This document shows positions 1-19,951 of a DNA stretch of 37,050 bases, in pieces. Within the stretch, counting starts at the first letter, position 1; every line of letters starts with the position of its first letter. Below the pieces are notes generated by a model. The model was not told the DNA's origin. It worked only from the letters and a program-made list of their open reading frames with translations, and did no database searches. The stretch lies in IMG/VR virus record IMGVR_UViG_3300017613_000255. One strand, written 5' to 3'. This DNA is from a virus. The translations under genes and the position numbers were made by a program.

Positions 1-121
1 TGTTTAGCAGTAAGGCGAGATTTAGATCTTGCAACATTGTTTGCTAGTTTTACACCGAATCAAGGTGATGCAAATGAGGACATTGTAGTTGCTGATCTTT
101 ATGCGGCATACAAGGAGTTAA
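1..121. repeat. Terminal direct duplication, copy 1 (identical to 36930..37050)
   Basis: Bases 1-121 (TGTTTAGCAGTAAGGCGAG...CAAGGAGTTAA) recur exactly as the last 121 bases. The repeat lies inside the capsid ORF, so it is most simply a circular-assembly overlap. Confidence 0.9.
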
Positions 122-522
122 GGGCAGGTATTGCACCTTTACCTTACAACTTGGTAGTTACACCAGGACAGTTCTGGGGAACAGTAGGTATCATCACATT
201 GATGGAAACTACATCAGGCAAGATTCAATCAGAAGCATTAGGTTCTGTCCAAGAGGACATTGCCCGAAATGGCTTCACAGGTAGGATACTTGGTTTCGAT
301 GTTTATATAGACAACAATGTGGCAGTATCATCTAACAATGCATCAGGTGCGGCTTTCTCAAGAGATGCAATTAAGTATGTTGAGAAGCAAGGCATCAAGA
401 TGGAAGTTGACAGAGTTATTGTTGGTGAGATTGGTGATCAAATCACAGGAACAGGTTTTTGGGGTGAAGCAATCCTCAGAAACAAACATGCCAATGAGAT
501 GCAATTTAATGAAATTACTTAA
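1..522 (+). CDS. Major capsid protein, C-terminal portion (continues from 36540..37050 across the circular junction)
   Basis: The frame of the listed ORF 37..522 is open back to base 1. It is in phase with the ATG at 36540 once the 121-nt duplication is collapsed. The joined product is about 303 aa and sits directly after the scaffold gene. Confidence 0.75.
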   Translation, partial: CLAVRRDLDLATLFASFTPNQGDANEDIVVADLYAAYKELRAGIAPLPYNLVVTPGQFWGTVGIITLMETTSGKIQSEALGSVQEDIARNGFTGRILGFDVYIDNNVAVSSNNASGAAFSRDAIKYVEKQGIKMEVDRVIVGEIGDQITGTGFWGEAILRNKHANEMQFNEIT

Positions 523-556
523 CCAATGTTAAGTTCTTTTATGTAAAATCACACTT

Positions 557-582
557 AGGGGGGTGTTTAACAGCATCCCCCT
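557..582 (+). other. Stem-loop just downstream of the capsid stop (9-bp stem AGGGGGGTG / CATCCCCCT, 8-nt loop, no U tract)
   Basis: Inverted repeat read directly, with one G-U pair. It is the only strong structure between the capsid gene and the next ORF. Confidence 0.5.
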
Positions 583-602
583 GGGGAATAGGAGAGGGAA
601 TC

Positions 603-1058
603 ATGGTAAATGAGAACAGATCAGATTTTGAACAAGAGTTAATGAAGATTGACTCACTCAAGAGCAAACATGGTGCAGGTGGTGTTACTATACCAATGAA
701 GGAGTTTCAGGATCATAAACTAGTTACTCTATGGACATCACTCAATAAGAAGATTGGCCCTATGACAGTAATGAATGCTGAGAATACTATGAGGCGGTGG
801 ATGAAGAAGGGAATTGAGTTATATCTTGATAAGAGGACAGATGCCCAAATTGATGCATATAAGCAAACTGACAAATACAAGAAACTACACAAGGTATGGA
901 AAGATCAGAGAATAGCAAGGCATAAGCAATCCAAAAAGAAAGATATTATTGAAATGGCACAAACCATAGCTGATGCAACAGGCAAAGTTGTTGCTGATGA
1001 GTTAGGTAAAACTAAGAAATCTAGGGGGAAGCGTGGTTCTGCTAAAGGAGTGGAATGA
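603..1058 (+). CDS. Hypothetical protein, Lys/Arg-rich C-terminus
   Basis: 151-aa ORF with ATG preceded by GGAGAGGGAA. No motif recognised. Confidence 0.6.
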   Translation: MVNENRSDFEQELMKIDSLKSKHGAGGVTIPMKEFQDHKLVTLWTSLNKKIGPMTVMNAENTMRRWMKKGIELYLDKRTDAQIDAYKQTDKYKKLHKVWKDQRIARHKQSKKKDIIEMAQTIADATGKVVADELGKTKKSRGKRGSAKGVE

Positions 1059-1422
1059 GAGTCAGAAGGGTGTTGCTGTATTTGGCAAGATCAAATGCCC
1101 AAGAAACTATGTGCTGAAAGAAGGGCATCAGCCATATAAACTCAAGCTGAATCCCCTTACAAAGCACCTTAACCAGAAACAAATTGACTACTACAATGCC
1201 AGATTCAATCTAAGGATGAGAAGGTGGCTTAGTGTCAAGGACAGGCATGGGAATAAGGTGCAGGACTTCAACAGTTACTATCAGCCATCAGTTTCAAAAG
1301 CATATGTGATTGAACATATCTATGATCCCAAGAATCCTATATGCAAGTATCAATGCAGAGGTAGATGCTTGAGGGAGTTAGGGTTTAGTGCCAATACAAA
1401 TACAATTAAGAGGTTAAAATGA
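1033..1422 (+). CDS. Hypothetical protein with C-terminal Cys cluster (CKYQCRGRC)
   Basis: GTG start 4 nt after TAGGGGGAAGC (GGGGGA SD). Its stop overlaps the next ATG as ATGA. Confidence 0.55.
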   Translation: MVLLKEWNESQKGVAVFGKIKCPRNYVLKEGHQPYKLKLNPLTKHLNQKQIDYYNARFNLRMRRWLSVKDRHGNKVQDFNSYYQPSVSKAYVIEHIYDPKNPICKYQCRGRCLRELGFSANTNTIKRLK

Positions 1423-3812
1423 GATTTAATGCTAGAGATTTCCTGGTTCAAACTATATTACCGATACTCATATCAATAGTAATGTTCATATTCCTAATGT
1501 GGTTGGCGGCAGTTGCTAATGCCCAAACATATCTGTGGATATATAGGCAGAGTGCCGATTGTGATGCTTTGACAGATGGGAAAGCAAGGCATCTCTGTTA
1601 TGACACTACATTAGATCAGTTCTATAAGTGTGTGCCTAGTGCCGGTGAGTGTGATACAGCAGGTGAGTGGGAAGCGGTTTCAGGTAATGCGATATTAGCT
1701 GATTCGGGTACTTTAACATTAGGGGGAACAAGTGGGAGTAATAACGAGAATCTAACATTGGATTTTGAATCAATATCAGATAAGGTAACAATTAATTCTG
1801 GAACAGATGTAGACACACTTGGCATTATTATAAACCCCACCGATGACTTTGAACAAAACTCTTTAAATTTATGGCATACTGAAACACACCAAAGTTCTAC
1901 AATCGCAATATCTGGAACAACACCTTATGCCGGAAGTTACGGTGTTAAAGCTGATGTAGTTCCTGATAGTGCAGGATTGACAGAGGTATTAGCCCATAGA
2001 CAATTTACAGATGAGATTGATTCTGTTACTATGGAAGCTATGGTTTATCTCGATGATGTAACATCAATAACAGTAATGCGATTAATAAACGCACAAAACA
2101 CAATAGGTGCTGGTGTTTTATCAAGCATACGGCTGAGAGATGACGGGGGGCAATTAAAAATCGGTGGTGCTTATACAAATGGTTCAGATACCTTAATAAC
2201 AAATCAAGACGAAACAAATGTAACTACTGGTACTTGGTATCATATAAAAATGAGTTATTATCGTCATCCCACAGATGGGTACTTTAAATGGTGGATTGCA
2301 GAAGGGGCAGACGCATTAACCTTAAAAACAAATTTTAGTGGTAATACTTATGGAACTTATGGAGTAAACAGAATATATTTTGGTGCTCAGAACAACCACC
2401 CAGACGATGTTACTATTTACTACGATAATGTAATTGCACCTCTTGAAATTGGAGAATTTAATAGACATGGGCTTACACTTGGAAGTGGAACTGGGGGTAG
2501 TCCGACACCACTTCCGTCTATAGTTTTTAATATTGATAATGGCACAGATGGGAACATATACTATAACGCAGGACAGGATGCTTTTATTTTTGACCGGAGT
2601 ACAAGAATAGGTTACGGGGGGAATACTGATTTTTATTTAATGTTTGATGCCACTACTAGCAACGGATTGCTTACTTGGATGGAAGATGAAATCGCATTAA
2701 GAAATGATGGCGATTTTATTTTGCAAGAAGAAGGAGATACTAGAGTTCCTGATGTGAGTGATACTGATCCACATCTAAGAGTGTATTCTGCCGATGAAGG
2801 TGTATCCACAGACTACATTGAGATGTATCATGACCAGACTGATGCACAGATTGTATCAGGAGCAGGAGATTTACAGTTTGATGCTCCAGAAGGGATAATA
2901 TATGATTCTGGATGGGGTTCTGTTGCTTTTCTACGGAATGGAACAGCAGGAGTTAATTTCTCCTATGATAACACTACTTTCTATCAGTTTATATGGCAGT
3001 TAAAAGATGAAACAGGAAATCAGTATGTTATAAGTCATTGGGGTGCAGGTAAAGACCACGACCATGCTACTCAGACTAATCCTACTCTCTATATACACTC
3101 TGACCTTGACCCAGATACATCCAATATTCAATATATGGGTCTTACCCACAATGGAGATGCAGATGATGTAGGAACTGGTGTTCTAGAGTCAGGCACTAAT
3201 TATATAAGTTTGATGAATGTAGGCGATGAAGCAGATGATGATAGGATACCCAACACTTCTGCAACTGATCCTACGTTAAGGATATACTCTGCTGATGATA
3301 CTAACGCTGATGACTACATCGAGATGTATCATGACCAACAAAATGCAGTTATTCAAACAGGTGTAGGTAGTGAATTGAAACTTAGTGTTAGTAATGCCGC
3401 TATATATCTTATGGATGAAGGAACAACAATGGTCAGGTGGAAAAGCGACAAGGATTTTATCCAGACAACATTTACACCACACGATAATGCCGGAAATCAT
3501 TTTATCATAGGTGATATAGCAGGTATAGACCAAGATTACGATCATCCATTGGCAACAGATCCCACCCTTTATGTTCAATCTGCTACTCCACCCAATACTG
3601 CTAATGATGAATGGATTTCTTTAACTCACAATGTTACTGATGGAGTGATTGATGTCGGGAGTGGAACAGTTAAGATTCTTGATGCCATAACACTTGTCGG
3701 AGCAAACAATAACTGTATTCTCACAGTAGATGATGACGGAACCTGTGATGCCGGAACTGAAATAGGTGAGGATAACTCAATAGCGATCTGTGCGGTATGT
3801 GCCGCTAACTAA
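1419..3812 (+). CDS. Large exported or membrane-anchored LamG/ConA-like lectin-fold protein with 2 x (A+B) C-terminal repeats; fibre or adhesin-like
   Basis: 797 aa. The N-terminus carries a 22-residue hydrophobic segment ending AVANA-Q. The stretch GTWYHIKMSYY...NRIYFGAQNN...IYYDNVI reads as a LamG-type jelly-roll. The motif DP(T/H)L-x-(I/V)-x-S...(Y/W)I-x-(M/L)-x-H(D/N) occurs four times. Confidence 0.7.
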   Translation: MRFNARDFLVQTILPILISIVMFIFLMWLAAVANAQTYLWIYRQSADCDALTDGKARHLCYDTTLDQFYKCVPSAGECDTAGEWEAVSGNAILADSGTLTLGGTSGSNNENLTLDFESISDKVTINSGTDVDTLGIIINPTDDFEQNSLNLWHTETHQSSTIAISGTTPYAGSYGVKADVVPDSAGLTEVLAHRQFTDEIDSVTMEAMVYLDDVTSITVMRLINAQNTIGAGVLSSIRLRDDGGQLKIGGAYTNGSDTLITNQDETNVTTGTWYHIKMSYYRHPTDGYFKWWIAEGADALTLKTNFSGNTYGTYGVNRIYFGAQNNHPDDVTIYYDNVIAPLEIGEFNRHGLTLGSGTGGSPTPLPSIVFNIDNGTDGNIYYNAGQDAFIFDRSTRIGYGGNTDFYLMFDATTSNGLLTWMEDEIALRNDGDFILQEEGDTRVPDVSDTDPHLRVYSADEGVSTDYIEMYHDQTDAQIVSGAGDLQFDAPEGIIYDSGWGSVAFLRNGTAGVNFSYDNTTFYQFIWQLKDETGNQYVISHWGAGKDHDHATQTNPTLYIHSDLDPDTSNIQYMGLTHNGDADDVGTGVLESGTNYISLMNVGDEADDDRIPNTSATDPTLRIYSADDTNADDYIEMYHDQQNAVIQTGVGSELKLSVSNAAIYLMDEGTTMVRWKSDKDFIQTTFTPHDNAGNHFIIGDIAGIDQDYDHPLATDPTLYVQSATPPNTANDEWISLTHNVTDGVIDVGSGTVKILDAITLVGANNNCILTVDDDGTCDAGTEIGEDNSIAICAVCAAN
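2739..3728 (+). repeat. In-frame degenerate tandem coding repeat (two units of about 165 aa: 2739..3239 and 3240..3728)
   Basis: Near-identical DNA cores TACATTGAGATGTATCATGACCAG (2817..2840) and TACATCGAGATGTATCATGACCAA (3315..3338). Peptides DPHLRVYSADEGVSTDYIEMYHDQ and DPTLRIYSADDTNADDYIEMYHDQ. B-type copies NPTLYIHSD...YMGLTHNGD and DPTLYVQSA...WISLTHNVT. Confidence 0.8.
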
Positions 3813-3823
3813 AAGGGGGAGAG

Positions 3824-4177
3824 ATGAAGAAACTATTACTAACATTAGCATTGTGCATTTTTTACACAGTTGCCTATGCGGCTGATGGCGACATCACAAA
3901 GGCAGAAGTTAAACCTGATGTGGCTGTGTGGAAACTTGATACAGTAAGGTTCTTGGTGTTCACCAAAACCTGTGAGGTTACTTACCGCAAGGTTGATTCT
4001 AATGGTGATCCTGTTGGGGGTAGTGTTACGGTGATTTTTATGAATGTTGCAGATGACCCTGACACACCTGAAGATGAAACATCTACAGAGTTTACACAGC
4101 TAGTAACTGCTATCAACAATGGCAGTAATATTAAAACCACTATTACAAATGCAGTAAAGATCAAACTTGGTATTTAA
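3824..4177 (+). CDS. Small secreted protein (Sec-type signal peptide)
   Basis: N-terminus MKKLLLTLALCIFYTVAYA-ADGD. SD AAAGGGGGAGAG lies before the ATG. Confidence 0.7.
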   Translation: MKKLLLTLALCIFYTVAYAADGDITKAEVKPDVAVWKLDTVRFLVFTKTCEVTYRKVDSNGDPVGGSVTVIFMNVADDPDTPEDETSTEFTQLVTAINNGSNIKTTITNAVKIKLGI

Positions 4178-4191
4178 TAGGGGGTGCAATA

Positions 4192-4743
4192 GTGAGTAAG
4201 AAACTATTACTTATGGCAATATGGATTATCTTAGTGATGTGTATAGGGTGTATTCCAGAACTGATGACTAAGGACTTGGATTTCAATACTGATTATGTGG
4301 CAGTAAAGGAAAGCACGATCACTAAGGTTAATTTCACTAAATCCCTGCAATACTTCCCCAACCCTGCAAGTTGGGTAGAGGGTGGCAAGGTATGGTTTAC
4401 CTCAGATGGGCAGTATGGCATTGAGGAATGGAGAGCATTCATTCAGGATCATAGTGGCAGTTTACCCCAACCTGTGCAGTATTATTCTAACGGTGTCAAG
4501 GTGAGTGCTGATAGATTCGCTAGTGCTGTGTCAAGCGGTGATGGTAGTGGTGCTTATTTTGCTGTGCAGTTGATGGATGTTCCTGAGTTTGAGAAAGCAT
4601 TAGATGATTGGCAGTCATGGCAGGGAAGTGCTAATTTTGAAGAAGTGCCTTGCCTTAACACAGATGGTGGTGATTATACATTCCCATGTGTGAGTGTAGC
4701 ATTGGGCAGAGATCATACTATTTGGCAATATCAACGGAAATAA
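4192..4743 (+). CDS. Exported protein, possible lipoprotein
   Basis: GTG start after GGGGGTGCAATA. N-terminus MSKKLLLMAIWIILVMCIGC has a hydrophobic core ending in Cys. The lipobox is not canonical. Confidence 0.65.
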   Translation: MSKKLLLMAIWIILVMCIGCIPELMTKDLDFNTDYVAVKESTITKVNFTKSLQYFPNPASWVEGGKVWFTSDGQYGIEEWRAFIQDHSGSLPQPVQYYSNGVKVSADRFASAVSSGDGSGAYFAVQLMDVPEFEKALDDWQSWQGSANFEEVPCLNTDGGDYTFPCVSVALGRDHTIWQYQRK

Positions 4744-4744
4744 T

Positions 4745-5494
4745 ATGGCTAGTCAATATATTGTTACGGATAGAACCACAGCACAGAATTATGCACTCAA
4801 GGTTGATGATGAACAGCTTTATTTTGAAGCAACTGCTGATACTGCAAGTGATGAGCCAATATTTGAAGATGATATAAATGCAGGAACTTACTATCAGTTA
4901 TTTATTGATGATGCTGAGTTAGCCATCATCTCTGTTTCAACACCCAGGGATGATATAGTATATGTTCTTGATCCAACACTAAACAAAGCGTATAGAGTAG
5001 TTGTCTTAGATGGGCAACTAGCAATTGTAGAATATACAGTTCCAGGTAAGGGGTATAAGGTTACCAGGTTTGTGATAACACCTCTTACTGTCAGGGTTAC
5101 ACCTACAAACAGGATTGCCAAGTTTCAGCAATCTGTCAGGGTAACAAAATCTAATATTAAAAGGGCAGTAGTTAATGCAAAGATACAGGTGCTAAAATTG
5201 TTTGGACTAGGTGGAGCAGGAACAGCAGGAACAGTTGCACTAGCAAGTGCAGATACTTGGTATCAAGTGCCACAATCAGGTAGTGTGCCGAAAAGTGATT
5301 ACACTCTAGTTGTAACTAAAGAAAATGAAGATGGAACAATAAGGTGGGCATTCAAGAACACATCTGTGCCAAGTGCTACTTATGGCAACAAATCACCTAC
5401 ACATTTATCAGTTGATTTAAAGGCAGATCAGTTTATTTATTGTGGTAGTGATAATGCAGGTGATGATGTGTGTTGGACAGCCAAAATAAAATGA
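4745..5494 (+). CDS. Hypothetical protein, beta-rich
   Basis: 249-aa ORF whose ATG lies 1 nt after the previous stop. No motif recognised. Confidence 0.65.
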   Translation: MASQYIVTDRTTAQNYALKVDDEQLYFEATADTASDEPIFEDDINAGTYYQLFIDDAELAIISVSTPRDDIVYVLDPTLNKAYRVVVLDGQLAIVEYTVPGKGYKVTRFVITPLTVRVTPTNRIAKFQQSVRVTKSNIKRAVVNAKIQVLKLFGLGGAGTAGTVALASADTWYQVPQSGSVPKSDYTLVVTKENEDGTIRWAFKNTSVPSATYGNKSPTHLSVDLKADQFIYCGSDNAGDDVCWTAKIK

Positions 5495-6042
5495 AACTAT
5501 CTGAGATTGTCAAAGAGTATAAAGATGGCAAGATCACTTGGTATGAGTATCTTGCAAAGAAATATCTTGTGGATGGGGATACAACTATATTTAAGAGTGT
5601 ATTGAGTAAATTAGCTGTTGATGTTCAAGACATAGCAATGCAGAGGATACATAGGAAGATAACAACTAAAGAGTTCCTGACAGAAGAAGCTCTTTTGGGT
5701 AAACAGGTTGAGAAGTTTCTATTTGATAACAAGATAGCTAATGATATGCCCAAAGATGTTGAGAGAACATCATACTTCTATCAACAAGCTAAGATGTTTG
5801 ATACATATAACCACACAACCGATGCTGATTGTTATGCTATGGATTATGAGGGTTCATTGATTACATTAAGTTGGTTGGATTATTATTTTAAGCAGTATAT
5901 ACCTGCCTTTGTAGGCAAACCAAGATTTGATATATATAGTGATGAGTTGAAAGGGCAGAAAGATGCATCAGCATCAAATGATAAGCCAACTATAAGTATT
6001 TCAGCGGCGGATATGCTGAAGTATACTAAGGATTTGCCATGA
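5491..6042 (+). CDS. Hypothetical protein
   Basis: The ATG at 5491 overlaps the previous stop (ATGA). The listed ORF 5470 is the same frame with a weaker upstream start. Confidence 0.6.
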   Translation: MKLSEIVKEYKDGKITWYEYLAKKYLVDGDTTIFKSVLSKLAVDVQDIAMQRIHRKITTKEFLTEEALLGKQVEKFLFDNKIANDMPKDVERTSYFYQQAKMFDTYNHTTDADCYAMDYEGSLITLSWLDYYFKQYIPAFVGKPRFDIYSDELKGQKDASASNDKPTISISAADMLKYTKDLP

Positions 6043-6251
6043 CAGTTGAGGAACACTTTGGATTGAGTGAGGAAGAAGCGTTTGGGTGTATATATGCAAC
6101 ACTAAAAACTATTGACCATTTCCTGGATAAGGGAATACACGATCCGAGAAGAATAGAGATGTTAAGGTCATATAAGGGTTTATTCAAAACATTGGATGCT
6201 ATTGAAGATGGACAGAGCCACCTTAGAGCAACATTGCATAAAAGTGATTAA
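6039..6251 (+). CDS. Hypothetical small helical protein
   Basis: 70-aa ORF with an ATGA overlap onto the previous stop. Confidence 0.5.
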   Translation: MTVEEHFGLSEEEAFGCIYATLKTIDHFLDKGIHDPRRIEMLRSYKGLFKTLDAIEDGQSHLRATLHKSD

Positions 6252-6546
6252 AGAAGAACTTATATGTATTAGGAAAAAATACGAAGGGCAGAATTTCTCT
6301 ACAAGTGTTATTACTGATGATGAGGTAACATTAGACACAAAGATTAACAGCACACCTTTTGTTGATTCATTAGATGCTCTTGCGATATGGATGGCCATAG
6401 AACTTCATTTTACGGATTATGGGTATACAGGTGGTGGGAAAGAAGATAGGTTATATTCAAAGATAGCCGGTGTAGGCACAGTAAGAGATGCAGTAGATTT
6501 AATAGAGAGATATTTACCAAATGGCGGCAGTAATAATCCACAATGA
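6196..6546 (+). CDS. Acyl/peptidyl carrier protein-like protein (start uncertain: 6196, 6208 or 6241)
   Basis: [18 protein letters not shown] matches the carrier-protein core [18 protein letters not shown]. The candidate phosphopantetheine Ser codon is at 6367..6369. Flanking helices ([27 protein letters not shown]) are in the ACP order. Confidence 0.5.
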   Translation: [116 protein letters not shown]

Positions 6547-7561
6547 CCTGGCTTCAAAAGAAATAACCGTTCCCTTAACCACAGGTGCGCAAACCATAGA
6601 TTTAAGTTCTTTGTTAGAGCATGACGATCCCAAGATAGTTGTTATTGTGGGAACGAATACAGTAACAGGTGTTATGGGTGTTTACCCTGTTGGCTCTTTA
6701 ATGGCATTTAAGACAAGAAATCATATTGCTAACAGCACAATGATTTCACCTAGTTCTTTGAATGGAAGCAACCAGGTTGTAATACATAAGACAGCGGCAA
6801 CACAGAAGTTCTATTTACATGCAGAGTTTGGTGGTGATAGCGTAACAGCACACTCTGATGGTGTGGCCTGTTCTTATACAGCGAACACATGGACAAAGAA
6901 CCTCTTGTCAGGTGGTGGTGATGGTGAGTTCGCTATTACAAGAACTCATTTCAATAATGGCGGCAATTGGGGTTGCAGATCGCTTAACAGCGTGAATCCT
7001 AATACAGCACAGCCGAACCAATCACATGATTGGGGTGTTGTTAAAGTTCAGAATGACGGAACGAATAATGTTTACTGGACATACCAAAACAGGTCAGGCA
7101 AGACACCTACTAGGCAGGTTTACATCTATGAGATGGGTTATATGTCATCTGATTGTGGATGGAATCACATGGAAGATGATGTCGATGAGGTGGTAACAAC
7201 TGTAGGGAGTTGGGATCAGGAAGGCATTACTGGAACATCCCTGGAAGGGAATGATAGTGCTGATGCAGATATAGCATTAATGCATATTGACAATGCCAAT
7301 TCTTCAAACAGGGATGCTTGGGTTAGAGAGATTAGTGGGAGTGAGGCAACTAAGAAGTTCCCTAACAATGCAGGTAGGAGAGTATTAGCAAGTATAACAG
7401 CAAGTGAGTATGAGTATTATATATCACATATAGATGTCAATAATTATGTGCAAGGGTTCTTTATAGCACCGGCTGTAACAGGGGTGGATGTATCTAATAT
7501 AAGTGGGTATTGCAGGTTGGAAGAACCAACAACATCAGATAGACTAAGAACTAAGGAGTAG
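6521..7561 (+). CDS. Hypothetical beta-rich protein, Gly/Asn/Thr-rich; possible structural or binding protein
   Basis: 346-aa ORF. No enzymatic motif recognised. Confidence 0.6.
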   Translation: MAAVIIHNDLASKEITVPLTTGAQTIDLSSLLEHDDPKIVVIVGTNTVTGVMGVYPVGSLMAFKTRNHIANSTMISPSSLNGSNQVVIHKTAATQKFYLHAEFGGDSVTAHSDGVACSYTANTWTKNLLSGGGDGEFAITRTHFNNGGNWGCRSLNSVNPNTAQPNQSHDWGVVKVQNDGTNNVYWTYQNRSGKTPTRQVYIYEMGYMSSDCGWNHMEDDVDEVVTTVGSWDQEGITGTSLEGNDSADADIALMHIDNANSSNRDAWVREISGSEATKKFPNNAGRRVLASITASEYEYYISHIDVNNYVQGFFIAPAVTGVDVSNISGYCRLEEPTTSDRLRTKE

Positions 7562-7563
7562 TT

Positions 7564-7815
7564 ATGCCTTTAAGAACAATAATGGCTGAAGCAATTAAGT
7601 TAATACCATCTGGAATTATTATTACTGCCCTTATATTTGGTGGCAAAGAGATTATTACTAATGATAGAAGAAATACAGATGAACATACTGAAATCAGGGC
7701 AGATAATCATGTAACAAAGGAGATAGTAACCAGGATTGATGCTAGGCAGGAAATGATGATAGAGAATGTAAAAGAACAGAAAGATACATTAAGAAGAATT
7801 GAACAGAAGTTATGA
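7564..7815 (+). CDS. Small membrane-anchored coiled-coil protein
   Basis: N-terminal TM segment (IKLIPSGIIITALIFGG) followed by a charged helix. SD AAGGAG lies before the ATG. Confidence 0.6.
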   Translation: MPLRTIMAEAIKLIPSGIIITALIFGGKEIITNDRRNTDEHTEIRADNHVTKEIVTRIDARQEMMIENVKEQKDTLRRIEQKL

Positions 7816-8051
7816 AACAAGCTGACTTCTTACATATGATTTCTAAATCTGTATATGAATTAAGTCAGATTGCCAAAGATGCCAGAGAGAACAACCAAGA
7901 ATTTAAGAGAGTTATATTGGAAAGAGAAAAGATAATCAATAAGTCATTAGAGCATTTAGAGCATGTATACAAGATGTTGGATTTGTCAGCTACATATTTT
8001 CCTGAAAAGGATAATGGTGAACAGATTTGCAAAAACGATATCTTCAAGTAG
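7812..8051 (+). CDS. Small coiled-coil protein
   Basis: ATGA overlap with the previous stop. 79 aa, helical and charged. Confidence 0.55.
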   Translation: MKQADFLHMISKSVYELSQIAKDARENNQEFKRVILEREKIINKSLEHLEHVYKMLDLSATYFPEKDNGEQICKNDIFK

Positions 8052-8218
8052 CAGAGCATGAATTGAATAACATCAAGACAATTCAACAGGTATTAAGGCA
8101 TCATATTGAGAAATTAGATAATAAGATCACAAATTTAGAAGCACTTATCAAGGGGGAGTATAATGAAACAGCAATTTCTGAAAGAGAAAACAGGCACAAT
8201 TCGCCTGACAGCATATGA
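8027..8218 (+). CDS. Small coiled-coil ORF in the -1 frame relative to 7812..8051 (weak TTG start; may be a frameshift extension)
   Basis: It fills an otherwise non-coding 112-nt gap. No convincing SD is present. It begins at CAAAAAC in the end of the previous ORF. Confidence 0.3.
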   Translation: MQKRYLQVAEHELNNIKTIQQVLRHHIEKLDNKITNLEALIKGEYNETAISERENRHNSPDSI

Positions 8219-9065
8219 GAATAATAGACCTCTAATACCTGCTGATAGTGTAAAAATCACTCTTTACAAGCCGGATGGTGCTACATTACAGGCCCAGGCA
8301 AGTGCTTCTAGGGATGCTACAACAGGAGAGATGACTTATTCAATTACAGCTACCCACACAGCTACAAAGGATCTGAATTACAAAGCCACTTGGGAATATA
8401 CCATTAGTGGTGAAACAAGGTATGAGGATCAGTTGTTTGATGTAGTCTTGAGTATTCTGTCAATACCTATTACAGATGATGATCTATACAATGAGTTGAA
8501 CTCATTGAGGAAAACTCAGATACAGGATACATCAACAGCAACAGCCGGTGCGGCAGGAACATTGACAGATACAGCACAGAGGAAAGAAGCAGATGATTAT
8601 TGGAATGGTGGCACAATTGAGATTATAGGTGGCACAGGGCCGAACCAGATGAGAGATATTACTGACTTTGTGCAGTCAACAGGTGTTATTTCAGTAACAC
8701 CTAACTGGGCAACTAATCCTGACAATACAAGCAGGTATAGGATTATAAGGTCTTGGAGTAAACAGATCACACAGAGTTTTGAGAAGATAGAAACTATGTT
8801 ACTCAATAAGGGCAAAAGGCATTCTTTGATCTTGGAGAGTAGCGAGATTAAAGTTCCGTTGATATACCTTACTGTGCATTTTATTTGTCTTGATTTGATG
8901 GATGAACCTGATGACAAGTGGCATATGCTAGGTAATAGGTATTGGGAACTGTTTAATGATGCATTTAATGGGATGAGATTACAGTATGATGAGGATGAGA
9001 GTGGGTTCATACAGGGTGATGAAGAAGGGTATGGTGCGGCACAGATACGGATAGGAAGGGCATGA
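8163..9065 (+). CDS. Putative virion structural protein (possible head-tail adaptor or neck protein with an N-terminal Ig-like beta-sandwich)
   Basis: SD AAGGGGGAG lies before the ATG. N-terminal pattern ITLYKPDGATL...TGEMTYSITATH...YKATWEY. Position at the start of the head-tail joining block. The family call is tentative. Confidence 0.35.
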   Translation: MKQQFLKEKTGTIRLTAYENNRPLIPADSVKITLYKPDGATLQAQASASRDATTGEMTYSITATHTATKDLNYKATWEYTISGETRYEDQLFDVVLSILSIPITDDDLYNELNSLRKTQIQDTSTATAGAAGTLTDTAQRKEADDYWNGGTIEIIGGTGPNQMRDITDFVQSTGVISVTPNWATNPDNTSRYRIIRSWSKQITQSFEKIETMLLNKGKRHSLILESSEIKVPLIYLTVHFICLDLMDEPDDKWHMLGNRYWELFNDAFNGMRLQYDEDESGFIQGDEEGYGAAQIRIGRA

Positions 9066-9805
9066 GGTTATCTGTTAATATCCTTAATTGGAACTGCAAG
9101 AATGTTCTTAAAGATACCCTTGAGGTTTTAGAAACCGAGTGCTTTGACAATGACTTTGAGGTTATTGTGGTGGACAATGGCTCAAAGGATGGCAGTATAG
9201 AGTTCTTGAAGGGAAAGCAGAAGGTGTGGGTAAATGACAATCTTCACATCATCAGTAACAGAAAAAATCTTGGAATTTCTAAGGGGAAGAATCAGGGTAT
9301 TGAGAAATCTATTGGTGATTATGTTCTTTTACTTGATGCTGATGTGTTACCTGTAAAGAATAGCATCTTTATGCTGATGGATTACTTGGATCACCATGAT
9401 GAGTGCCAAACAATAGGGTTCAAACCTAACAAGTGGCAGAACCAAAAGAATACTGAGCATTGTAAGTTCCATGAAGATTACTGCCACACATTGTTTGAGC
9501 CAAGAACACAGAAAGCGGCTTGTTTGTTCTATGGGATGTATAGAAGATGGCTGTTTGATATGGGGTTGAGGTTGAGGGAAGATGGTGTGTTTGGTGAGGT
9601 AGGGTATGGATGGGAAGATCATGATTTTTACTTGACTATGAAAGAGATGGGGGTAGACCAATGGGTTGCCCACATGAACAAAGCCAATGGAAGATATTAC
9701 CATGCTATCAACTCATCTATTAACAACTATGGGTGTATGGGAAAGAATAAGTATCAGGAAACATCAAAGGCAAGAGGGATTGCATTTCACAAATCATGGG
9801 ATTAG
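9062..9805 (+). CDS. Family 2 (GT-A) glycosyltransferase
   Basis: Motifs LSVNILNWNC...FEVIVVDNGSKDGS...NLGISKGKNQG...YVLLLDADV (DxD). ATGA overlap with the upstream structural gene. Confidence 0.8.
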   Translation: MRLSVNILNWNCKNVLKDTLEVLETECFDNDFEVIVVDNGSKDGSIEFLKGKQKVWVNDNLHIISNRKNLGISKGKNQGIEKSIGDYVLLLDADVLPVKNSIFMLMDYLDHHDECQTIGFKPNKWQNQKNTEHCKFHEDYCHTLFEPRTQKAACLFYGMYRRWLFDMGLRLREDGVFGEVGYGWEDHDFYLTMKEMGVDQWVAHMNKANGRYYHAINSSINNYGCMGKNKYQETSKARGIAFHKSWD

Positions 9806-10101
9806 ATAAAGTTATAATCAAGCACTTAGATGAGATGGATAAGATCGAGGAAGCCATCGATAAGGATATTGAGAAGTTATACAAAATGTTAGACATTGAT
9901 GTTCTGATGCAAGAGCCAGAGGAAGTGTTGGGTGTGTTTGTTACTAGGGTGCAGAATATATTAGAGGATAAGTATTTTCCTGAAGCGGCAAAGAAGGGTA
10001 TTGAGTTCGCTGAGAAGGTCAAGGCAGATGGTAGTATTGAAGTTGAGAAATCTAATAATCCTAATCTTAACAAAGAGTTAATAGATAAAAATAATGTTTA
10101 G
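9796..10101 (+). CDS. Hypothetical acidic helical protein
   Basis: 101-aa ORF in the head-tail joining block. Confidence 0.55.
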   Translation: MGLDKVIIKHLDEMDKIEEAIDKDIEKLYKMLDIDVLMQEPEEVLGVFVTRVQNILEDKYFPEAAKKGIEFAEKVKADGSIEVEKSNNPNLNKELIDKNNV

Positions 10102-10570
10102 TCATAGAATCAAAGGTTATATACGCTTTCCGAAATTCAATCTCAAGAAAGATTTAAAGGAAGTGGCAGTCAGAGAGATTATACCTGATATACATACTAG
10201 AATGGCGAGAGCAATAGATTTGCATAATAAGAGATATGGAAAATTAGCTGATTCAACATTGAAGCAGAGAAATAAGAAAAGACAGGGGTTTCTTCCGTTG
10301 AAGGCAACAGGGCAACTAAGGAAATCTATCACGAGCCGGTATGTTCCAAGTGGTGTTCTAATTTATCTAAAATCACATAGAAAGAAGTCATATCTTTCAA
10401 ACCAAGAACTTGCAGATATTTTACAAAATATTGGTGTTAAAAGCAAGATGTATGGTAAAAGAAAGTTTGAATTTTTTGGTATATCAAGAAAAGCAGAGAA
10501 GCGGTCTTTTAATTATATGAAAAAGAAGGTAGAGGAAGCAATTAAAAATGCCAGAAGAAGAAATATTTAA
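10094..10570 (+). CDS. Putative head-closure or tail-completion protein (virion morphogenesis family-like)
   Basis: Position, plus LKATGQLRKSI resembling the L-x-x-TG-x-L-x-x-S motif of morphogenesis proteins. Tentative. Confidence 0.35.
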   Translation: MFSHRIKGYIRFPKFNLKKDLKEVAVREIIPDIHTRMARAIDLHNKRYGKLADSTLKQRNKKRQGFLPLKATGQLRKSITSRYVPSGVLIYLKSHRKKSYLSNQELADILQNIGVKSKMYGKRKFEFFGISRKAEKRSFNYMKKKVEEAIKNARRRNI

Positions 10571-11039
10571 CGAGTTTGAAGATAGGGAATTAAGGACATT
10601 AACAGTAATGTTATCAGCGAGTGCTGAGAGGACTGCTGTTACTATTGAGGAATATATACAAATACGTCTTGAGCAAGGAACTGATTTAGCAATAATAAGA
10701 GAAACTTTATTGGATGATTTAGAACAGGGTGGCAGGATATTCGGGCAGTTTAGGAATGAAATAAAATCAACAACTAGGGGATCAATGGGAAGGGTTAGGG
10801 ATTCGGCAGAATTTTCTGAGGTTGGGGTTACTGAACAGTATCGGTGGGTTGCTGTTTTAGTCCGCACTTGTAAAGATTGTTTAGGATTACACGGTAAAGT
10901 CAAACAATGGGAAGATTGGGAACAAAGCAGATTTGGTTTACCAAGATCAGGTGGAACTCGTTGCAGACAGAACTGTCAATGTGTATTAGTTGATGCAAAA
11001 TCAGTTGATATTCAACCAATAATAAGGGGGAAGAAATGA
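10548..11039 (+). CDS. Minor head protein, SPP1 gp7 / Mu F-like C-terminal domain only
   Basis: WVAVLVRTCKDCLGLHGKV...GLPRSGGTRCRQNCQCVLV matches the W..D.rtC..C..l.Gk...P...nCrC signature. Confidence 0.55.
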   Translation: MPEEEIFNEFEDRELRTLTVMLSASAERTAVTIEEYIQIRLEQGTDLAIIRETLLDDLEQGGRIFGQFRNEIKSTTRGSMGRVRDSAEFSEVGVTEQYRWVAVLVRTCKDCLGLHGKVKQWEDWEQSRFGLPRSGGTRCRQNCQCVLVDAKSVDIQPIIRGKK

Positions 11040-11040
11040 A

Positions 11041-11472
11041 ATGAGTTACTATGGGATCAAAGATCAACTAACCACAAGGTTGGGTGTTCTTGGTTATACT
11101 GAGAGCAAAGAGGCATTTGATTTCGGTGATGCTTCAAACAAAGAGTATGGCAACACTTTTATTCTTAATCCAATTTCAGGTTCGATGGATGGAGAGTTTG
11201 AAGGGGAAAATCTTGTGAATAGGTTTTATGATTCACAAACATGGCAAATACAAATTGCTTTTGAAAAATCAGCACAGAATCAAACACAACAGAGGGATGT
11301 GATGAATGACAAGATAGCTGATATCTTAAGTGATTTGGATAATCCTACTAACTGGCAGGATGTTACCAATGGAGCAGTAACACAGCGTTATCAAGCATGG
11401 GAGATAACAGATCAGGGTAACTACTTCCTATTATCAATAAATTTAAACATACTAGACAAAATAAGTTATTAA
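11041..11472 (+). CDS. Putative tail terminator or neck protein
   Basis: 143-aa ORF immediately upstream of the tail tube gene. Called from position only. Confidence 0.35.
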   Translation: MSYYGIKDQLTTRLGVLGYTESKEAFDFGDASNKEYGNTFILNPISGSMDGEFEGENLVNRFYDSQTWQIQIAFEKSAQNQTQQRDVMNDKIADILSDLDNPTNWQDVTNGAVTQRYQAWEITDQGNYFLLSINLNILDKISY

Positions 11473-12750: not shown

Positions 12751-13046
12751 CTATTGCTCTTTTCCACACTTGCGATGAAGATTGCAAGGAATACAAGGAC
12801 AAAGACCATCCACTTCCTAATAGATGGGTGATTGATGGGATTAGTTACAGAAGATGCCCTTTAACTGAGGTGGATACTGGTTATTACTGGTTCATCAAAG
12901 CATATAATTATCTTGACAAGGGTATCTTACCAAACTCAGGGGGGTGGATGGATCAGAGTAAAAGGTTTATTGATATGATGAGTTTTATGATTAATATTGT
13001 GGCGGAACATCAACAGGAACAGGTGAAGAAATATGGCACAAAGTAA
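12421..13046 (+). CDS. Tail assembly chaperone, long form (gpGT-like) by -1 frameshift at 12739..12747
   Basis: I translated the -1 frame by hand across 12747..12830 with no stop. The listed ORF 12828..13046 has no SD of its own and overlaps the tape measure start. Confidence 0.6.
12739..12747 (+). promoter_or_regulatory. Slippery A9 run, candidate programmed -1 frameshift site
   Basis: GAC AAA AAA AAA TAA. The -1 frame (ATA ACT ATT ...) has no stop from 12747 and joins ORF 12828..13046 in phase. Confidence 0.65.
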
Positions 13047-18991: not shown

Positions 18992-19008
18992 AATAAGGAG
19001 AGAATCAA

Positions 19009-19197: not shown

Positions 19198-19199
19198 TC

Positions 19200-19427: not shown

Positions 19428-19444
19428 GAGCATCTTCTCTATAT

Positions 19445-19496: not shown

Positions 19497-19506
19497 ATAA
19501 TAATTG

Positions 19507-19542: not shown

Positions 19543-19568
19543 GAGGTTAAGGAAAGGGGGTAAACGGA

Positions 19569-19939: not shown

Positions 19940-19951
19940 AAGGGGGGTGTC

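What the first reader, a model, noticed from the sequence alone, without database searches (positions are those of the whole stretch)
603..8218. 7.6-kb island of unrecognised genes wedged between the capsid gene and the head-tail joining genes
In the usual TerS-TerL-portal-scaffold-capsid siphovirus layout, the capsid gene is followed almost directly by adaptor, closure and tail genes. Here about 14 tightly packed + strand ORFs intervene. Several are translationally coupled, with ATGA junctions at 1419, 5491, 6039 and 7812. I recognise none of them as a standard morphogenesis protein. Four carry N-terminal signal or TM segments (1419, 3824, 4192, 7564). One has a LamG-like fold with repeats, one looks like an acyl carrier protein, and three are short coiled coils. 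No promoter or terminator separates the block from the late operon apart from the hairpin at 557..582. The block would therefore be made late and in bulk. It may be a capsid-decoration or head-fibre set, an envelope-directed or host-surface-directed late module, or something not yet described.
Basis: partly seen in the sequence, partly recalled or inferred. Interest (0 to 1): 0.75.

Follow-up and report, generated by a model that had tools for sequence, protein, structure and literature searches.

The report
Mosaic accessory gene block after capsid gene
The unrecognised genes after this phage's capsid gene are real but are not one unit: one cassette encodes a fibre-like protein and a small partner that both carry export signals, and another is built around an acyl carrier protein and recurs next to capsid genes of unrelated phages, and the function of neither is known.

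Summary
The window is a complete 36.9-kb siphovirus genome with a 121-nt terminal repeat. From 603 to 8218, thirteen tightly packed + strand ORFs lie between the major capsid gene and the neck genes. None matches Pfam, PHROGs, PADLOC, PDB sequences or 50,697 GenBank phages. The unrecognised stretch really runs to 9805, taking in a 300-aa ORF and a GT2 glycosyltransferase.

The block is a mosaic of two cassettes that never co-occur elsewhere.

1. ORF3 plus ORF4. ORF3 is a 797-aa fibre-repeat protein with a signal-like N-terminus and terminal Cys clusters. ORF4 is a 117-aa secreted protein from a conserved family of more than 100 clusters, with a confident model and no fold match. In other phages this pair sits at the end of the tail module, among further signal-peptide proteins.

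2. ORF7–ORF8–ACP–ORF10. This cassette recurs directly after the capsid gene in an SU10-like podovirus and in another siphovirus. There it travels with a ketoreductase and a glycosyltransferase/methyltransferase fusion. ORF10 is made of three internal repeats.

My best reading is an envelope-directed exported fibre set plus an ACP-dependent virion-surface modification or decoration cassette. Both functions are inferred, not shown. The LamG call is unconfirmed.

The parts
554..585 (+). Stable stem-loop directly after the capsid stop codon. It has no U-tract, so it is probably an mRNA-stabilising or attenuating element and not a canonical terminator.
   Evidence: 80-nt region 523..602: -27.2 kcal/mol, z -3.1; not listed as terminator-like
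603..1058 (+). ORF1, 151 aa, Lys/Arg-rich C-terminus, orphan. Lys-rich proteins occupy the same position after the capsid gene in L014 and L015, but share no detectable similarity with it.
1033..1422 (+). ORF2, up to 129 aa (GTG start uncertain), orphan with four Cys. Its stop overlaps the ORF3 start (ATGA).
1419..3812 (+). ORF3, 797 aa. It has a long N-terminal signal or anchor segment ending in ANA|Q. A 4-Cys cluster lies at residues 48-78 and another at 766-794. A unique middle region (about 130-345) is unconfirmed as LamG. Two tandem fibre repeat units of about 170 aa lie at about 426-600 and 600-765.
3824..4177 (+). ORF4, 117 aa. It has a Sec-type signal peptide (AYA|ADGD) and a mature domain of about 95 aa (three strands, two helices). 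It belongs to a conserved family that follows fibre genes in other phages.
4192..4743 (+). ORF5, 183 aa. The N-terminal signal or anchor has an imperfect lipobox (VMCIGC). Orphan.
4745..5494 (+). ORF6, 249 aa, beta-rich by eye, no signal peptide, orphan.
5491..6042 (+). ORF7, 183 aa, first gene of the ACP cassette. Homologues occur in L016 (1e-17), L015 (7e-4) and L014 (0.016). No known family.
6039..6251 (+). ORF8, 70 aa, apparently helical, second gene of the ACP cassette. Homologue in L016 (2e-10), weaker in L014 and L015.
6208..6546 (+). ORF9, a divergent acyl carrier protein with a conserved D-S-L phosphopantetheine-site motif. The start is at 6196 or 6208.
6521..7561 (+). ORF10, 346 aa, built of three homologous repeats of about 110 aa. 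Its start overlaps the ACP gene here and in all homologous loci. The family is uncharacterised.
7564..7815 (+). ORF11, 83 aa, N-terminal TM segment plus a charged, coiled-coil-like tail. Weak similarity (E 0.03) to the TM protein that follows the ORF4 homologue in L009.
7812..8051 (+). ORF12, 79 aa, coiled-coil-like. Homologues lie near ORF4 homologues in L006 (7e-11) and L009 (2e-9).
8027..8218 (+). ORF13, 63 aa, coiled-coil-like, TTG start, overlapped at both ends. It is uncertain as a gene.
8163..9065 (+). 300-aa ORF with a strong SD site, unrecognised apart from a sub-threshold BppU_N hit (E 0.0014). It extends the accessory block.
9062..9805 (+). Soluble GT2 glycosyltransferase, coupled to the preceding ORF by ATGA. 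It lies just before the four small neck-position genes.

Best explanation
The block is not a single system. It is a patchwork of accessory late genes placed between the capsid gene and the neck genes. At least two cassettes in it are independently conserved elsewhere.

Cassette 1 is ORF3-ORF4, probably with ORF5. ORF3 is a fibre-repeat protein whose usual virion-attachment N-terminus is replaced by an export signal and a Cys-rich domain. ORF4 is its small, highly conserved secreted partner. I infer that both are sent across the cytoplasmic membrane by Sec late in infection, and that the Cys clusters form disulfides outside the cytoplasm. ORF4 would act on or with the fibre, as a tail-fibre chaperone or tip partner does. 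The exported fibre would then act on the cell envelope, for example by binding or masking the surface glycan receptor, and would not be built into the cytoplasmic virion.

Cassette 2 is ORF7-ORF8-ACP-ORF10. It is a mobile unit that sits right after the capsid gene in unrelated phages, elsewhere with a ketoreductase and a GT/MT fusion. I infer two things. First, it makes or carries an acyl group on the ACP for a virion-surface modification, working with the phage's glycosyltransferases and NDP-sugar 4,6-dehydratase. Second, ORF10, a single-chain pseudo-trimer with fibrous C-terminal tails in some homologues, is either the capsid-surface protein that is modified or the transferase.

Shown: gene content, the export signals, conservation, synteny, ACP identity at family level and the ORF10 repeats. 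Inferred: actual export, partnership of ORF3 with ORF4, the target of the ACP chemistry and any presence in virions.
For: The two cassettes are independent. HMMs of the ORF4 family hit 9 other loci. HMMs of ORF7, ORF8, ACP and ORF10 hit 4 other loci. No locus is shared except the window.

Cassette 1:
- ORF3 has only 13 homologues, sharing the C-terminal repeats. Four of them (P0002-P0005) begin with signal peptides, while P0006-P0008 begin like ordinary tail fibres.
- The homologues occupy the last structural-gene position in L001, L003, L006, L007 and L009.
- ORF4 homologues are 57-78% identical. They lie immediately after the fibre gene in L001, L007/L008 and L009, and two genes after it in L006.
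- The family has 104 clusters, and every aligned member has an N-terminal signal peptide.
- Runs of 3-6 consecutive signal-peptide proteins surround ORF4 homologues in L001, L006, L009, L010 and L012. In L010 there is also a 9-TM Wzy_C-like protein.
- ORF4 homologues that truly lack a signal peptide follow fibres that also lack one, in L011 and L018/L019.
- ORF3's eight Cys all lie at residues 48-78 and 766-794.
- The ORF4 model is confident (pLDDT 88.8) and has no PDB or BFVD fold match.

Cassette 2:
- ORF10 has 19 homologous representatives among 1.84 billion proteins.
- In L014 the order is SU10 MCP - 166 aa - KR - ORF7-like - ORF8-like - ACP - ORF10-like - SU10 adaptor.
- In L015 (same phage as L017) the order is protease - scaffold - MCP - 61 aa - 946-aa GT4/MT/GT2 - KR - ORF7-like - ORF8-like - ACP - ORF10-like - adaptor - tail tube.
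- In L016 the order is ORF7-like - KR - ORF8-like - ACP - ORF10-like.
- Cassette proteins of L014 and L015 are 50-71% identical, and no other proteins of the two loci match.
- The ACP family profile hits solved ACPs at 1e-8, and 3 of 4 members hit PF00550. D-S-L is invariant.
- ORF10's repeats align with each other: repeats 1 and 3 at 94.9% probability (E 5e-8), repeats 2 and 3 at 74%.
- The window also has a GT2 at 9062..9805 (4e-22), an NDP-sugar 4,6-dehydratase (5e-65) and two weak GT2-like ORFs.
Against: No function was demonstrated.
- Signal peptides were judged by hydropathy and the AxA rule only, because no SignalP was available. ORF3's hydrophobic stretch of about 26 residues is long for a cleaved signal and may be a membrane anchor.
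- One locus (L013) pairs a fibre that lacks a signal peptide with an ORF4 homologue that has one, so the match between the two is imperfect.
- The window's cassette lacks the ketoreductase. Nothing in the cassette is recognisable as a ketosynthase, acyltransferase, adenylating enzyme or phosphopantetheinyl transferase.
- ORF9 alone does not reach any ACP model threshold.
- Only three independent backbones support the adjacency to the capsid gene.
- ORF1, ORF2, ORF5, ORF6, ORF11 and ORF13 remain orphans.
Confidence: 0.5

Rival explanations
1. The block is the phage's displaced host-recognition (tail fibre) module. ORF3 would be the receptor-binding fibre and ORF4 its assembly chaperone. ORF6 and ORF10 would be further fibre or baseplate parts, encoded upstream of the tail genes and not downstream.
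For: ORF3 homologues sit at the tail-fibre position in five other phage contigs. Some begin like ordinary fibres. ORF4 follows the fibre gene as Tfa-type chaperones do. The window's own tail module ends with a short Tal-like protein (374 aa) and a 246-aa protein, with no long fibre.
Against: ORF3 and ORF4 both have export signals, which would separate them from cytoplasmic tails until lysis. The ORF7-ORF10 cassette lies next to the capsid gene in L014, which has its own 1230-aa and 1544-aa tail proteins downstream, and in L015, which has a complete tail module. An ACP has no known role in fibres.
Confidence: 0.15
2. The whole block, with the GT2 and the sugar genes elsewhere in the genome, remodels the host surface or blocks superinfection. 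Exported lectin-like proteins and a lipoprotein would mask the receptor. ACP, GT and dehydratase chemistry would alter a surface polysaccharide so that progeny do not adsorb to infected cells or debris.
For: There are export signals on ORF3, ORF4 and ORF5. A Wzy_C-like polytopic membrane protein lies directly upstream of the ORF4 homologue in L010. The window has the GT2 at 9062, an NDP-sugar 4,6-dehydratase and weak GT2-like ORFs. From my own knowledge, ACP-dependent N-acylation of O-antigen sugars is known (V. cholerae O1 rfbKLMNO).
Against: ORF7-ORF10 have no export or membrane signals. Their fixed place after the capsid gene in three backbones is not expected for host-directed morons. No integrase or lysogeny genes were recognised. 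No undecaprenyl-linked, flippase-type or Gtr-type membrane proteins occur in the window.
Confidence: 0.2
3. The whole block is a capsid-decoration or head-fibre set, and all its products end up on the head.
For: It lies directly after the capsid gene. ORF10 is a three-repeat pseudo-trimer, and some homologues have fibrous C-terminal repeats. Weak PHROG hits link ORF11 and ORF13 to head or scaffold families (E 0.03).
Against: Proteins exported by Sec (ORF3, ORF4, ORF5) cannot decorate capsids that assemble in the cytoplasm. Elsewhere ORF3 and ORF4 belong to tail-distal gene clusters, not head clusters. No island protein matches any decoration family.
Confidence: 0.08
4. Many of the ORFs are not genes, and the region is chance open frames or decayed sequence.
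For: ORF13 has a TTG start and is overlapped at both ends. Six ORFs have no homologue anywhere.
Against: All ORFs are on one strand with almost no gaps. They have strong SD sites and four ATGA couplings. ORF3, 4, 7, 8, 9, 10 and 12 have conserved homologues. GC content and codon usage match the rest of the genome.
Confidence: 0.03

Closest known systems
[quoted passage not shown]
   Same: Enzymes that are not virion components interrupt the head gene order and are co-expressed with capsid genes. Glycosyltransferases, and in L015 a methyltransferase domain, are present. The proposed target is the capsid surface.
   Different: There is no sequence relationship. Here the insert follows the capsid gene and is built around an ACP with three unknown proteins (plus a ketoreductase elsewhere). 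No ACP is reported in the Corndog set. Modification of this virion is untested.
Tail fibre plus downstream assembly chaperone pairs (lambda Stf/Tfa, T4 gp37/gp38, Mu S/U); from my own knowledge
   Same: A small protein is encoded immediately after a long fibre gene. The small partner is better conserved than the fibre. The pair normally sits at the distal end of the tail module.
   Different: ORF4 has no similarity to Tfa-type chaperones, and its model has no fold match. ORF4, and most partner fibres, carry Sec-type signal peptides, unlike the known cytoplasmic pairs. In this genome the pair lies after the capsid gene.
Phage receptor-blocking envelope proteins encoded beside receptor-binding genes (T5 Llp, phi80/T1/N15 Cor, lambda Lom); from my own knowledge
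   Same: They are exported phage proteins encoded next to fibre or receptor-binding genes, acting on the cell envelope and not in the virion.
   Different: Those are single small lipoproteins or outer-membrane proteins. Here the exported set includes 700-1200-aa fibre-repeat proteins and a conserved soluble partner. There is no sequence similarity, and ORF5's lipobox is imperfect.
ACP-dependent acylation of sugars in surface-glycan and flagellin-glycosylation loci (V. cholerae O1 rfbKLMNO; P. aeruginosa a-type flagellin glycosylation island); from my own knowledge
   Same: A dedicated ACP and a FabG-like ketoreductase are clustered with glycosyltransferases and NDP-sugar enzymes to decorate a surface structure.
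   Different: No ketosynthase, acyl-ACP synthetase or acyltransferase is recognisable here. ORF7, ORF8 and ORF10 are new families. The locus is viral and sits next to the capsid gene.
Capsid decoration proteins and head fibres (lambda gpD, phage L Dec, phi29 gp8.5); from my own knowledge
   Same: They are encoded next to the capsid gene and have trimeric symmetry, which ORF10 would mimic with three repeats in one chain. Some ORF10 homologues have fibrous C-terminal tails.
   Different: There is no sequence match. ORF10's fold is unknown and its presence on capsids is untested. Known decoration genes are not coupled to an ACP.

Membership tests
Acyl carrier protein (PF00550, PP-binding), tested on ORF9 | Conserved Asp-Ser-Leu motif providing the serine for 4'-phosphopantetheine attachment | tested here: met
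   D53-S54-L55 is invariant in the four syntenic proteins.
Acyl carrier protein (PF00550, PP-binding), tested on ORF9 | Significant profile match to ACP models | tested here: inconclusive
   ORF9 alone has no Pfam or NCBIfam hit, and PHROG ACP scores E 0.01. The four-member syntenic family profile hits solved ACPs at 1e-8 over its full length, and 3 of 4 members hit PF00550, best 3.7e-7.
Acyl carrier protein (PF00550, PP-binding), tested on ORF9 | Four-helix bundle that is actually phosphopantetheinylated | not testable with these tools
The modification needs mass spectrometry.
LamG / concanavalin-A-like lectin domain (PF13385), tested on ORF3 residues about 130-345 | Profile or structural match to the LamG jelly-roll | tested here: not met
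   There is no Pfam hit at E<=0.1. BLASTP against the LamG-bearing homologue P0005 is not significant. The AlphaFold model of this region has pLDDT below 50. It remains possible, but only by eye.
Sec-type cleavable signal peptide, tested on ORF4 and ORF3 | Basic n-region, hydrophobic h-region and small residues at -3/-1 (AxA) | tested here: met
   ORF4 reads MKKLLLTLALCIFYTVAYA|ADGD, and the pattern is conserved in 50 aligned homologues. ORF3 has R2/R6, a stretch of about 26 hydrophobic residues and ANA|Q, which could be an uncleaved anchor. This was judged by hydropathy and inspection only, with no SignalP and no experiment.
Tail-fibre assembly chaperone (Tfa type), tested on ORF4 | Sequence or fold similarity to known chaperones, and a cytoplasmic location | tested here: not met
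   There is no Pfam or PHROG hit. The confident model has no fold match in PDB or BFVD. The signal peptide argues against a cytoplasmic location. Only the gene position after a fibre gene is shared.
Bacterial lipoprotein (Llp/Cor-like exclusion protein), tested on ORF5 | Lipobox [LVI][ASTVI][GAS]C at the end of the signal peptide | tested here: inconclusive
   The sequence ...ILVMCIGC|IPE fits neither register of the consensus exactly. No homologue was found.
Phage head-completion, neck or decoration families | Profile match of island products to adaptor, closure, decoration or head-fibre families | tested here: not met
   There are no hits at E<0.001 in Pfam or PHROGs for any ORF in 603..9065. 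The ORF10 family profile has no PDB hit at all and no significant Pfam hit (best E 0.0078, one of 18 members).
Phage virion-glycosylation system (mycobacteriophage type) | Glycosyltransferase genes embedded in the virion structural operon | tested here: met
   The GT2 at 9062..9805 matches PF00535 at 4e-22 and lies between the island and the neck genes. L015 has a 946-aa GT4/MT/GT2 fusion directly upstream of the ACP cassette.
Phage virion-glycosylation system (mycobacteriophage type) | Capsid or tail subunits carry glycans | not testable with these tools
   This needs purified particles and glycoprotein staining or mass spectrometry.
Anti-phage defence or exclusion systems (PADLOC) | Match to a known defence protein model | tested here: not met
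   No hits for ten island proteins.

The most novel reading that the evidence does not exclude
Two things not described for tailed phages may both be present.

(i) A fibre-like protein and its conserved partner may be routed through Sec. The fibre would then fold and form disulfides outside the cytoplasm. It would either join particles only after the holin collapses the membrane, or coat the dying cell as a receptor mask.

(ii) An ACP-based cassette may be genetically tied to the capsid gene and may acylate a capsid-surface protein or glycan. That would be the first ACP-dependent virion modification system, with ORF10 as a single-chain pseudo-trimeric capsid protein.
Probability: 0.2. Interest if true: 0.85.

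Novelty: new variant of a known kind. Interest (0 to 1): 0.65.

Why it matters
Accessory genes inside phage structural operons are usually written off as hypothetical.

This block resolves into two recurrent cassettes found only in metagenomes. The ORF4 family has more than 100 clusters at 90% identity, a confident model and no fold match. The ACP cassette moves between podovirus and siphovirus backbones yet keeps its place beside the capsid gene.

If the exported fibre set acts on the envelope, it would be a new form of receptor masking, or an unexpected route for fibre maturation outside the cytoplasm.

If the ACP cassette modifies the virion, it would extend phage particle modification from glycosylation to acyl chemistry. 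That bears on particle stability, adsorption and immune recognition.

Both ideas can be tested with synthetic genes even though the phage is uncultured.

Tried and rejected
1. Concatenated query: thirteen... in fact twelve island proteins were joined into one 1776-aa query for the search for homologous proteins. It returned nothing, not even the window's own proteins, which are in the collection. This was a technical failure of candidate selection, is not evidence of absence, and cost one search.

2. AlphaFold of ORF3 with its 14-sequence alignment gave pLDDT 46.5.

3. Close relatives of the backbone were sought with the capsid and portal proteins in IMG/VR and with the portal in JGI metagenomes. 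None was found, so the with/without-island synteny test could not be run. The best GenBank portal matches are only about 26% identical.

4. The ORF10 alignment in JGI metagenomes gave nothing. The first, broader alignment was too divergent to scan with. IMG/VR gave only a second copy of the L015 phage.

5. The ORF4 family in 185,579 species genomes gave one 3.6-kb contig binned to a Saccharibacteria MAG. It is too short to trust as a host assignment.

6. ORF5 and ORF6 have no relatives in IMG/VR.

7. The idea that ORF7 is a phosphopantetheinyl transferase was considered and dropped. The motif-like residues in the window copy are not conserved in the family, and the profile hits nothing in the PDB.

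8. The idea that ORF11-ORF13 are the lysis cassette was considered and set aside. A better candidate cluster of signal, TM and lipoprotein ORFs lies at 18447..20368.

9. Recent foreign acquisition was not supported. GC content and codon usage of the sub-blocks resemble the rest of the genome.

10. Rfam and tRNA scans of the window were empty.

11. Two literature searches found no precedent for an ACP linked to a capsid gene, and one found none for signal-peptide tail fibres. One paper notes that phage ACPs have unclear function.

Full report
WHAT THE WINDOW IS

The first and last 121 nt are identical, so the window is a circularly closed genome of 36,929 bp. The major capsid gene runs through the junction, at 36588..37050 plus 122..522.

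PHROGs and Pfam recognise these genes:
- a ParB-methyltransferase fusion (31324..32478);
- the small terminase (weak) and the large terminase (32864..34159);
- the portal (34172..35746, 3e-70), the scaffold (35718..36512, 2e-12) and the capsid protein (phrog_267, 1e-7).

Downstream lie a tail tube protein (11488..12405, PF18906, 7e-11), the tape measure (13033..15210), Dit and a Tal-like protein. All genes are on the + strand.

CHECK OF THE OBSERVATION

Thirteen ORFs fill 603..8218 with spacings of -56 to +14 nt. ATGA overlaps occur at 1419, 5491, 6039 and 7812, exactly as reported, and again at 9062. Most starts have strong Shine-Dalgarno sites.

Hydrophobic N-termini are present at 1419, 3824, 4192 and 7564.

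The hairpin after the capsid stop is real, at 554..585. The 80-nt region folds at -27.2 kcal/mol with z = -3.1, but has no U-tract. Promoter-like and terminator-like matches are at the level of shuffled sequence.

None of the products matches anything:
- Pfam or PHROGs at E<0.001;
- PADLOC;
- PDB sequences.

The region has no DNA match in 50,697 GenBank phage records. ORF3, ORF4, ORF10 and the 300-aa ORF have no tblastn match there either. The eight island proteins that could be looked up exactly are all singletons at 90% identity.

The right-hand limit of 8218 is arbitrary. The next ORF (8163..9065, 300 aa) is just as unrecognised. It is coupled by ATGA to a clear GT2 glycosyltransferase (9062..9805, PF00535, 4e-22). 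By position, the neck set is the four small ORFs at 9796..11472, just before the tube gene. Of these, one has a sub-threshold Mu-F hit and one a weak tail-terminator hit. The accessory stretch is therefore about 9.2 kb.

CASSETTE 1: ORF3 AND ORF4

ORF3 (797 aa) has only 13 homologues in 5.8 billion cluster representatives, and all align to its C-terminal part.

That part is two tandem units of about 170 aa. The motifs are DPxLR(V/I)YSAD..DYIEMYHDQ and D(H/Y)DH..T(N/D)PTLY(I/V). Both units hit the same region of each homologue.

Four homologues (P0002-P0005) start with typical signal peptides. P0006-P0008 start like ordinary tail fibres.

On their contigs the homologues are the last large gene of the tail module:
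- L003: a podovirus with an SU10 adaptor.
- L009: the homologue follows a 1120-aa protein.
- L001, L006 and L007.

ORF3's eight cysteines fall in two clusters, at residues 48-78 just after the hydrophobic segment and at 766-794 at the C-terminus. Related Cys-rich C-termini (DPC..EG.IFYN.T..C.C..ACF) end the signal-peptide proteins upstream of ORF4 homologues in L007, L010 and L012. I take clustered terminal cysteines as a sign of disulfide formation outside the cytoplasm. This is an inference.

It shows no significant similarity to the LamG-bearing P0005, and the AlphaFold model has pLDDT below 50 there. The call is unconfirmed.

ORF4 (117 aa) was the surprise. tblastn against the loci fetched for ORF3 found it at 57-78% identity. 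It lies directly after the fibre gene in L001, L007/L008 and L009, and two genes after it in L006.

A dedicated search found 104 clusters. All were unnamed apart from generic 'hypothetical/uncharacterized protein' labels, one of them from a marine sediment metagenome. Fifty aligned members all have a basic and hydrophobic N-terminus ending in a small-x-small site, before a conserved mature start (A)DGDI.

The AlphaFold model is confident (pLDDT 88.8). It shows a signal helix, then three strands and two helices. Foldseek found nothing significant in the PDB (best E 0.13). In BFVD the best match was an unnamed protein at E 1e-3 with rmsd 29 Å.

Three further contexts (L010, L011, L012) again place the gene at the end of the structural module, before small TM or lipoprotein ORFs that look like lysis genes.

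These neighbourhoods hold runs of exported proteins:
- L006: four consecutive signal-peptide proteins of 920, 273, 351 and 118 aa.
- L009: 1120, 702 and 118 aa.
- L001: five of six.
- L012: four.
- L010: two signal-peptide proteins, a 9-TM protein with a weak Wzy_C hit, then the ORF4 homologue.

ORF4 homologues that truly lack a signal peptide exist, with an in-frame stop just upstream. In L011 and L018/L019 they follow fibres that also lack one. L013, however, pairs a fibre without a signal peptide with a homologue that has one.

ORF3 and ORF4 are therefore a recurrent fibre-plus-partner pair that is usually exported. In this genome the pair sits after the capsid gene and not at the tail end. 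ORF5, with a signal or anchor and an imperfect lipobox, fits the exported theme but has no relatives.

CASSETTE 2: ORF7-ORF8-ACP-ORF10

An exhaustive HMMER search with ORF10 found 19 other representatives among 1.84 billion proteins. Most are 330-350 aa. Their contexts were decisive.

L014 is a 49.6-kb SU10-like podovirus contig. Its order is: SU10 capsid protein, a 166-aa ORF, a FabG-like ketoreductase, a 223-aa ORF, an 84-aa ORF, an 80-aa PP-binding protein, the ORF10 homologue (36% identity, 1e-52), then the SU10 adaptor.

L015 is a 36.4-kb siphovirus, and L017 from another sample is identical to it. Its order is: maturation protease, scaffold-family protein, capsid protein (phrog_1005, 4e-57), a 61-aa Lys-rich ORF, a 946-aa GT4/methyltransferase/GT2 fusion, the ketoreductase, a 222-aa ORF, a 75-aa ORF, the ACP, the ORF10 homologue, then an adaptor-like protein, a Phage_tail_S protein and the tail tube.

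L016 has an ORF7-like gene, the ketoreductase, an ORF8-like gene, the ACP and the ORF10-like gene.

The window's ORF7 and ORF8 match the corresponding L016 proteins at 1e-17 and 2e-10, and those of L014 and L015 more weakly. HMMs built from each of the four families find exactly one copy in each of these loci, in the same order.

Between L014 and L015 the cassette proteins are 50-71% identical, while no other proteins of the two loci match. The cassette therefore moves horizontally yet keeps its place between the capsid and adaptor genes.

The four syntenic small proteins share an invariant D-S-L. Their profile hits solved ACPs at about 1e-8 over the full length, and three of the four hit PF00550. 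ORF9 is the most divergent member. Alone it reaches only PHROG ACP at E 0.01.

In all four loci the ORF10 start overlaps the ACP gene by 8-26 nt.

ORF10 consists of three homologous repeats of about 110 aa:
- repeats 1 and 3: hhalign 94.9%, E 5e-8;
- repeats 2 and 3: 74%, E 3e-5;
- repeats 1 and 2: weak.

Several homologues end in short 'LxLDTGxL' repeats, and P0137 has a long repetitive tail. The ORF10 family profile has no PDB hit, and its members have no significant Pfam hit (best E 0.0078, one of 18). The ORF7 profile also hits nothing in the PDB.

THE REST OF THE BLOCK

ORF12 has homologues close to ORF4 homologues in L006 and L009. In L009 the order is fibre, ORF4-like, an 88-aa TM protein weakly like ORF11, then ORF12-like. 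The window's ORF5-ORF10 therefore look as if they were inserted into an ORF3-ORF4-ORF11-ORF12 arrangement.

ORF1, ORF2, ORF5, ORF6 and ORF13 remain orphans.

GC content and codon usage of the sub-blocks do not stand out from the genome, so nothing points to recent acquisition.

Elsewhere the genome carries an NDP-sugar 4,6-dehydratase (26022..27023, 5e-65; closest to LegB, Gmd and RfbB models but below their cut-offs). It also has two weak GT2-like ORFs and a metallophosphoesterase-like ORF that is shared with L001.

HOW IT MOST LIKELY WORKS (INFERENCE)

The two cassettes never co-occur outside this genome, so I treat them separately.

Cassette 1. The export signals, the terminal Cys clusters and the replacement of the usual fibre N-terminus all point the same way. 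So does the company of other signal-peptide proteins, and in L010 of a Wzy-like membrane protein. Together they indicate products that act in or on the cell envelope late in infection. ORF4 would be a compartment-matched partner of the fibre. Receptor masking or glycan binding is the simplest role. Fibre maturation in the periplasm followed by attachment after lysis cannot be excluded.

Cassette 2. A dedicated ACP accompanied elsewhere by a ketoreductase and a GT/MT fusion is one line of evidence. Its fixed position beside capsid genes of unrelated phages is another. Together they point to modification or decoration of the head surface. ORF10 would be either the decorated pseudo-trimeric protein or a new transferase.

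Two points weaken this reading. No condensing or transfer enzyme is recognisable, and the window lacks the ketoreductase.

COMPARISON WITH WHAT IS KNOWN

The nearest documented precedent for enzymes interrupting the head gene order is mycobacteriophage Corndog. It has an O-methyltransferase, two glycosyltransferases and an N-acetylglucosaminyltransferase between its portal and protease genes. These are not found in virions and were proposed to modify the capsid (PMC4351075).

Phage ACPs have been noted before, with unclear function (PMC5463345).

The following resemble parts of the block in logic but not in sequence. They are cited from my own knowledge:
- fibre and chaperone pairs;
- Llp and Cor exclusion lipoproteins;
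- ACP-dependent sugar acylation in O-antigen and flagellin-glycosylation loci;
- trimeric decoration proteins.

No defining sequence or fold feature of those families was met, except at family level for the ACP and for the GT2.

LIMITS

- No close relative of the backbone exists in the collections searched.
- The host is unknown. The SD usage argues against Bacteroidota, which rests on my own knowledge of SD usage. A lipoprotein-like ORF at 19952..20368 hints at a diderm host.
- One protein search was wasted on a concatenated query.

VERDICT

The block is a mosaic of two uncharacterised but recurrent cassettes plus orphan genes. I rate it as a new variant of known kinds, namely accessory late genes, fibre/partner pairs and virion-modification sets. 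There is a real but minority chance that one or both cassettes work in a way not yet described for tailed phages.

Noticed in passing
window 1..121 and 36930..37050: An exact 121-nt terminal direct repeat. The window is a circularly closed 36,929-bp genome, and the major capsid gene (36588..37050 plus 122..522) is split by the linearisation point.
   Followed up: yes
window 25087..30114: A sugar-related gene cluster outside the finding. It has an NDP-sugar 4,6-dehydratase (26022..27023, Pfam 5e-65), two weak GT2-like ORFs (25087..25911, 27690..28466) and a metallophosphoesterase-like ORF (28463..29335) shared with L001. With the GT2 at 9062..9805, the phage invests heavily in glycan chemistry.
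   Followed up: partly
window 18447..20368: A run of small ORFs after the tail genes: one with a signal peptide (18447), three with TM segments (18710, 19009, 19679) and one with a lipoprotein-like signal (19952, ...VTSC). It looks like a lysis cassette, but no endolysin was recognised anywhere in the genome.
   Followed up: no
window 10548..11039: A 163-aa ORF among the neck-position genes has a sub-threshold match to the C-terminal part of Phage_Mu_F / minor head protein (Pfam 1.2e-5). That family is normally encoded next to the portal gene.
   Followed up: no
window 30643..31263 and 31324..32478: A 206-aa ORF matches only the first ~75 positions of the C-5 cytosine methylase model and is 66% identical to an ORF in L009. 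It lies next to a ParB-N/DNA methyltransferase fusion (phrog_498, 2e-102).
   Followed up: no
L015 516..2471 (same phage as L017): The siphovirus that carries the ACP cassette also has two paralogous radical-SAM genes (37% identical) just upstream of its head genes. Its maturation-protease-family protein has a precomputed ChaB hit.
   Followed up: no
L010 8838..10004: A 388-aa protein with nine hydrophobic segments and a weak Wzy_C (O-antigen ligase/polymerase) hit lies directly upstream of the ORF4 homologue. This hints that the exported module is linked to surface polysaccharide.
   Followed up: partly
L014 about 7660..8240: An uncalled open frame between the 166-aa ORF and the ketoreductase encodes fibre-like sequence (…GIVPDPGTESGEYLKDDGTWDSPG…). 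The ketoreductase gene call also appears to be truncated at its 5' end.
   Followed up: no
window 603..1058; L014 7164..7664; L015 5216..5401: In all three phages the ORF directly after the capsid gene is Lys/Arg-rich, with no detectable similarity between them. They may be positional analogues of unknown role.
   Followed up: no
L013 (CAZEZZ010000053.1): The only hit for the ORF4 family in 185,579 species genomes is a 3.6-kb contig binned into a Saccharibacteria MAG. It carries a fibre fragment, an ORF4 homologue and another signal-peptide protein. It is probably phage sequence and is too short to trust as a host assignment.
   Followed up: partly
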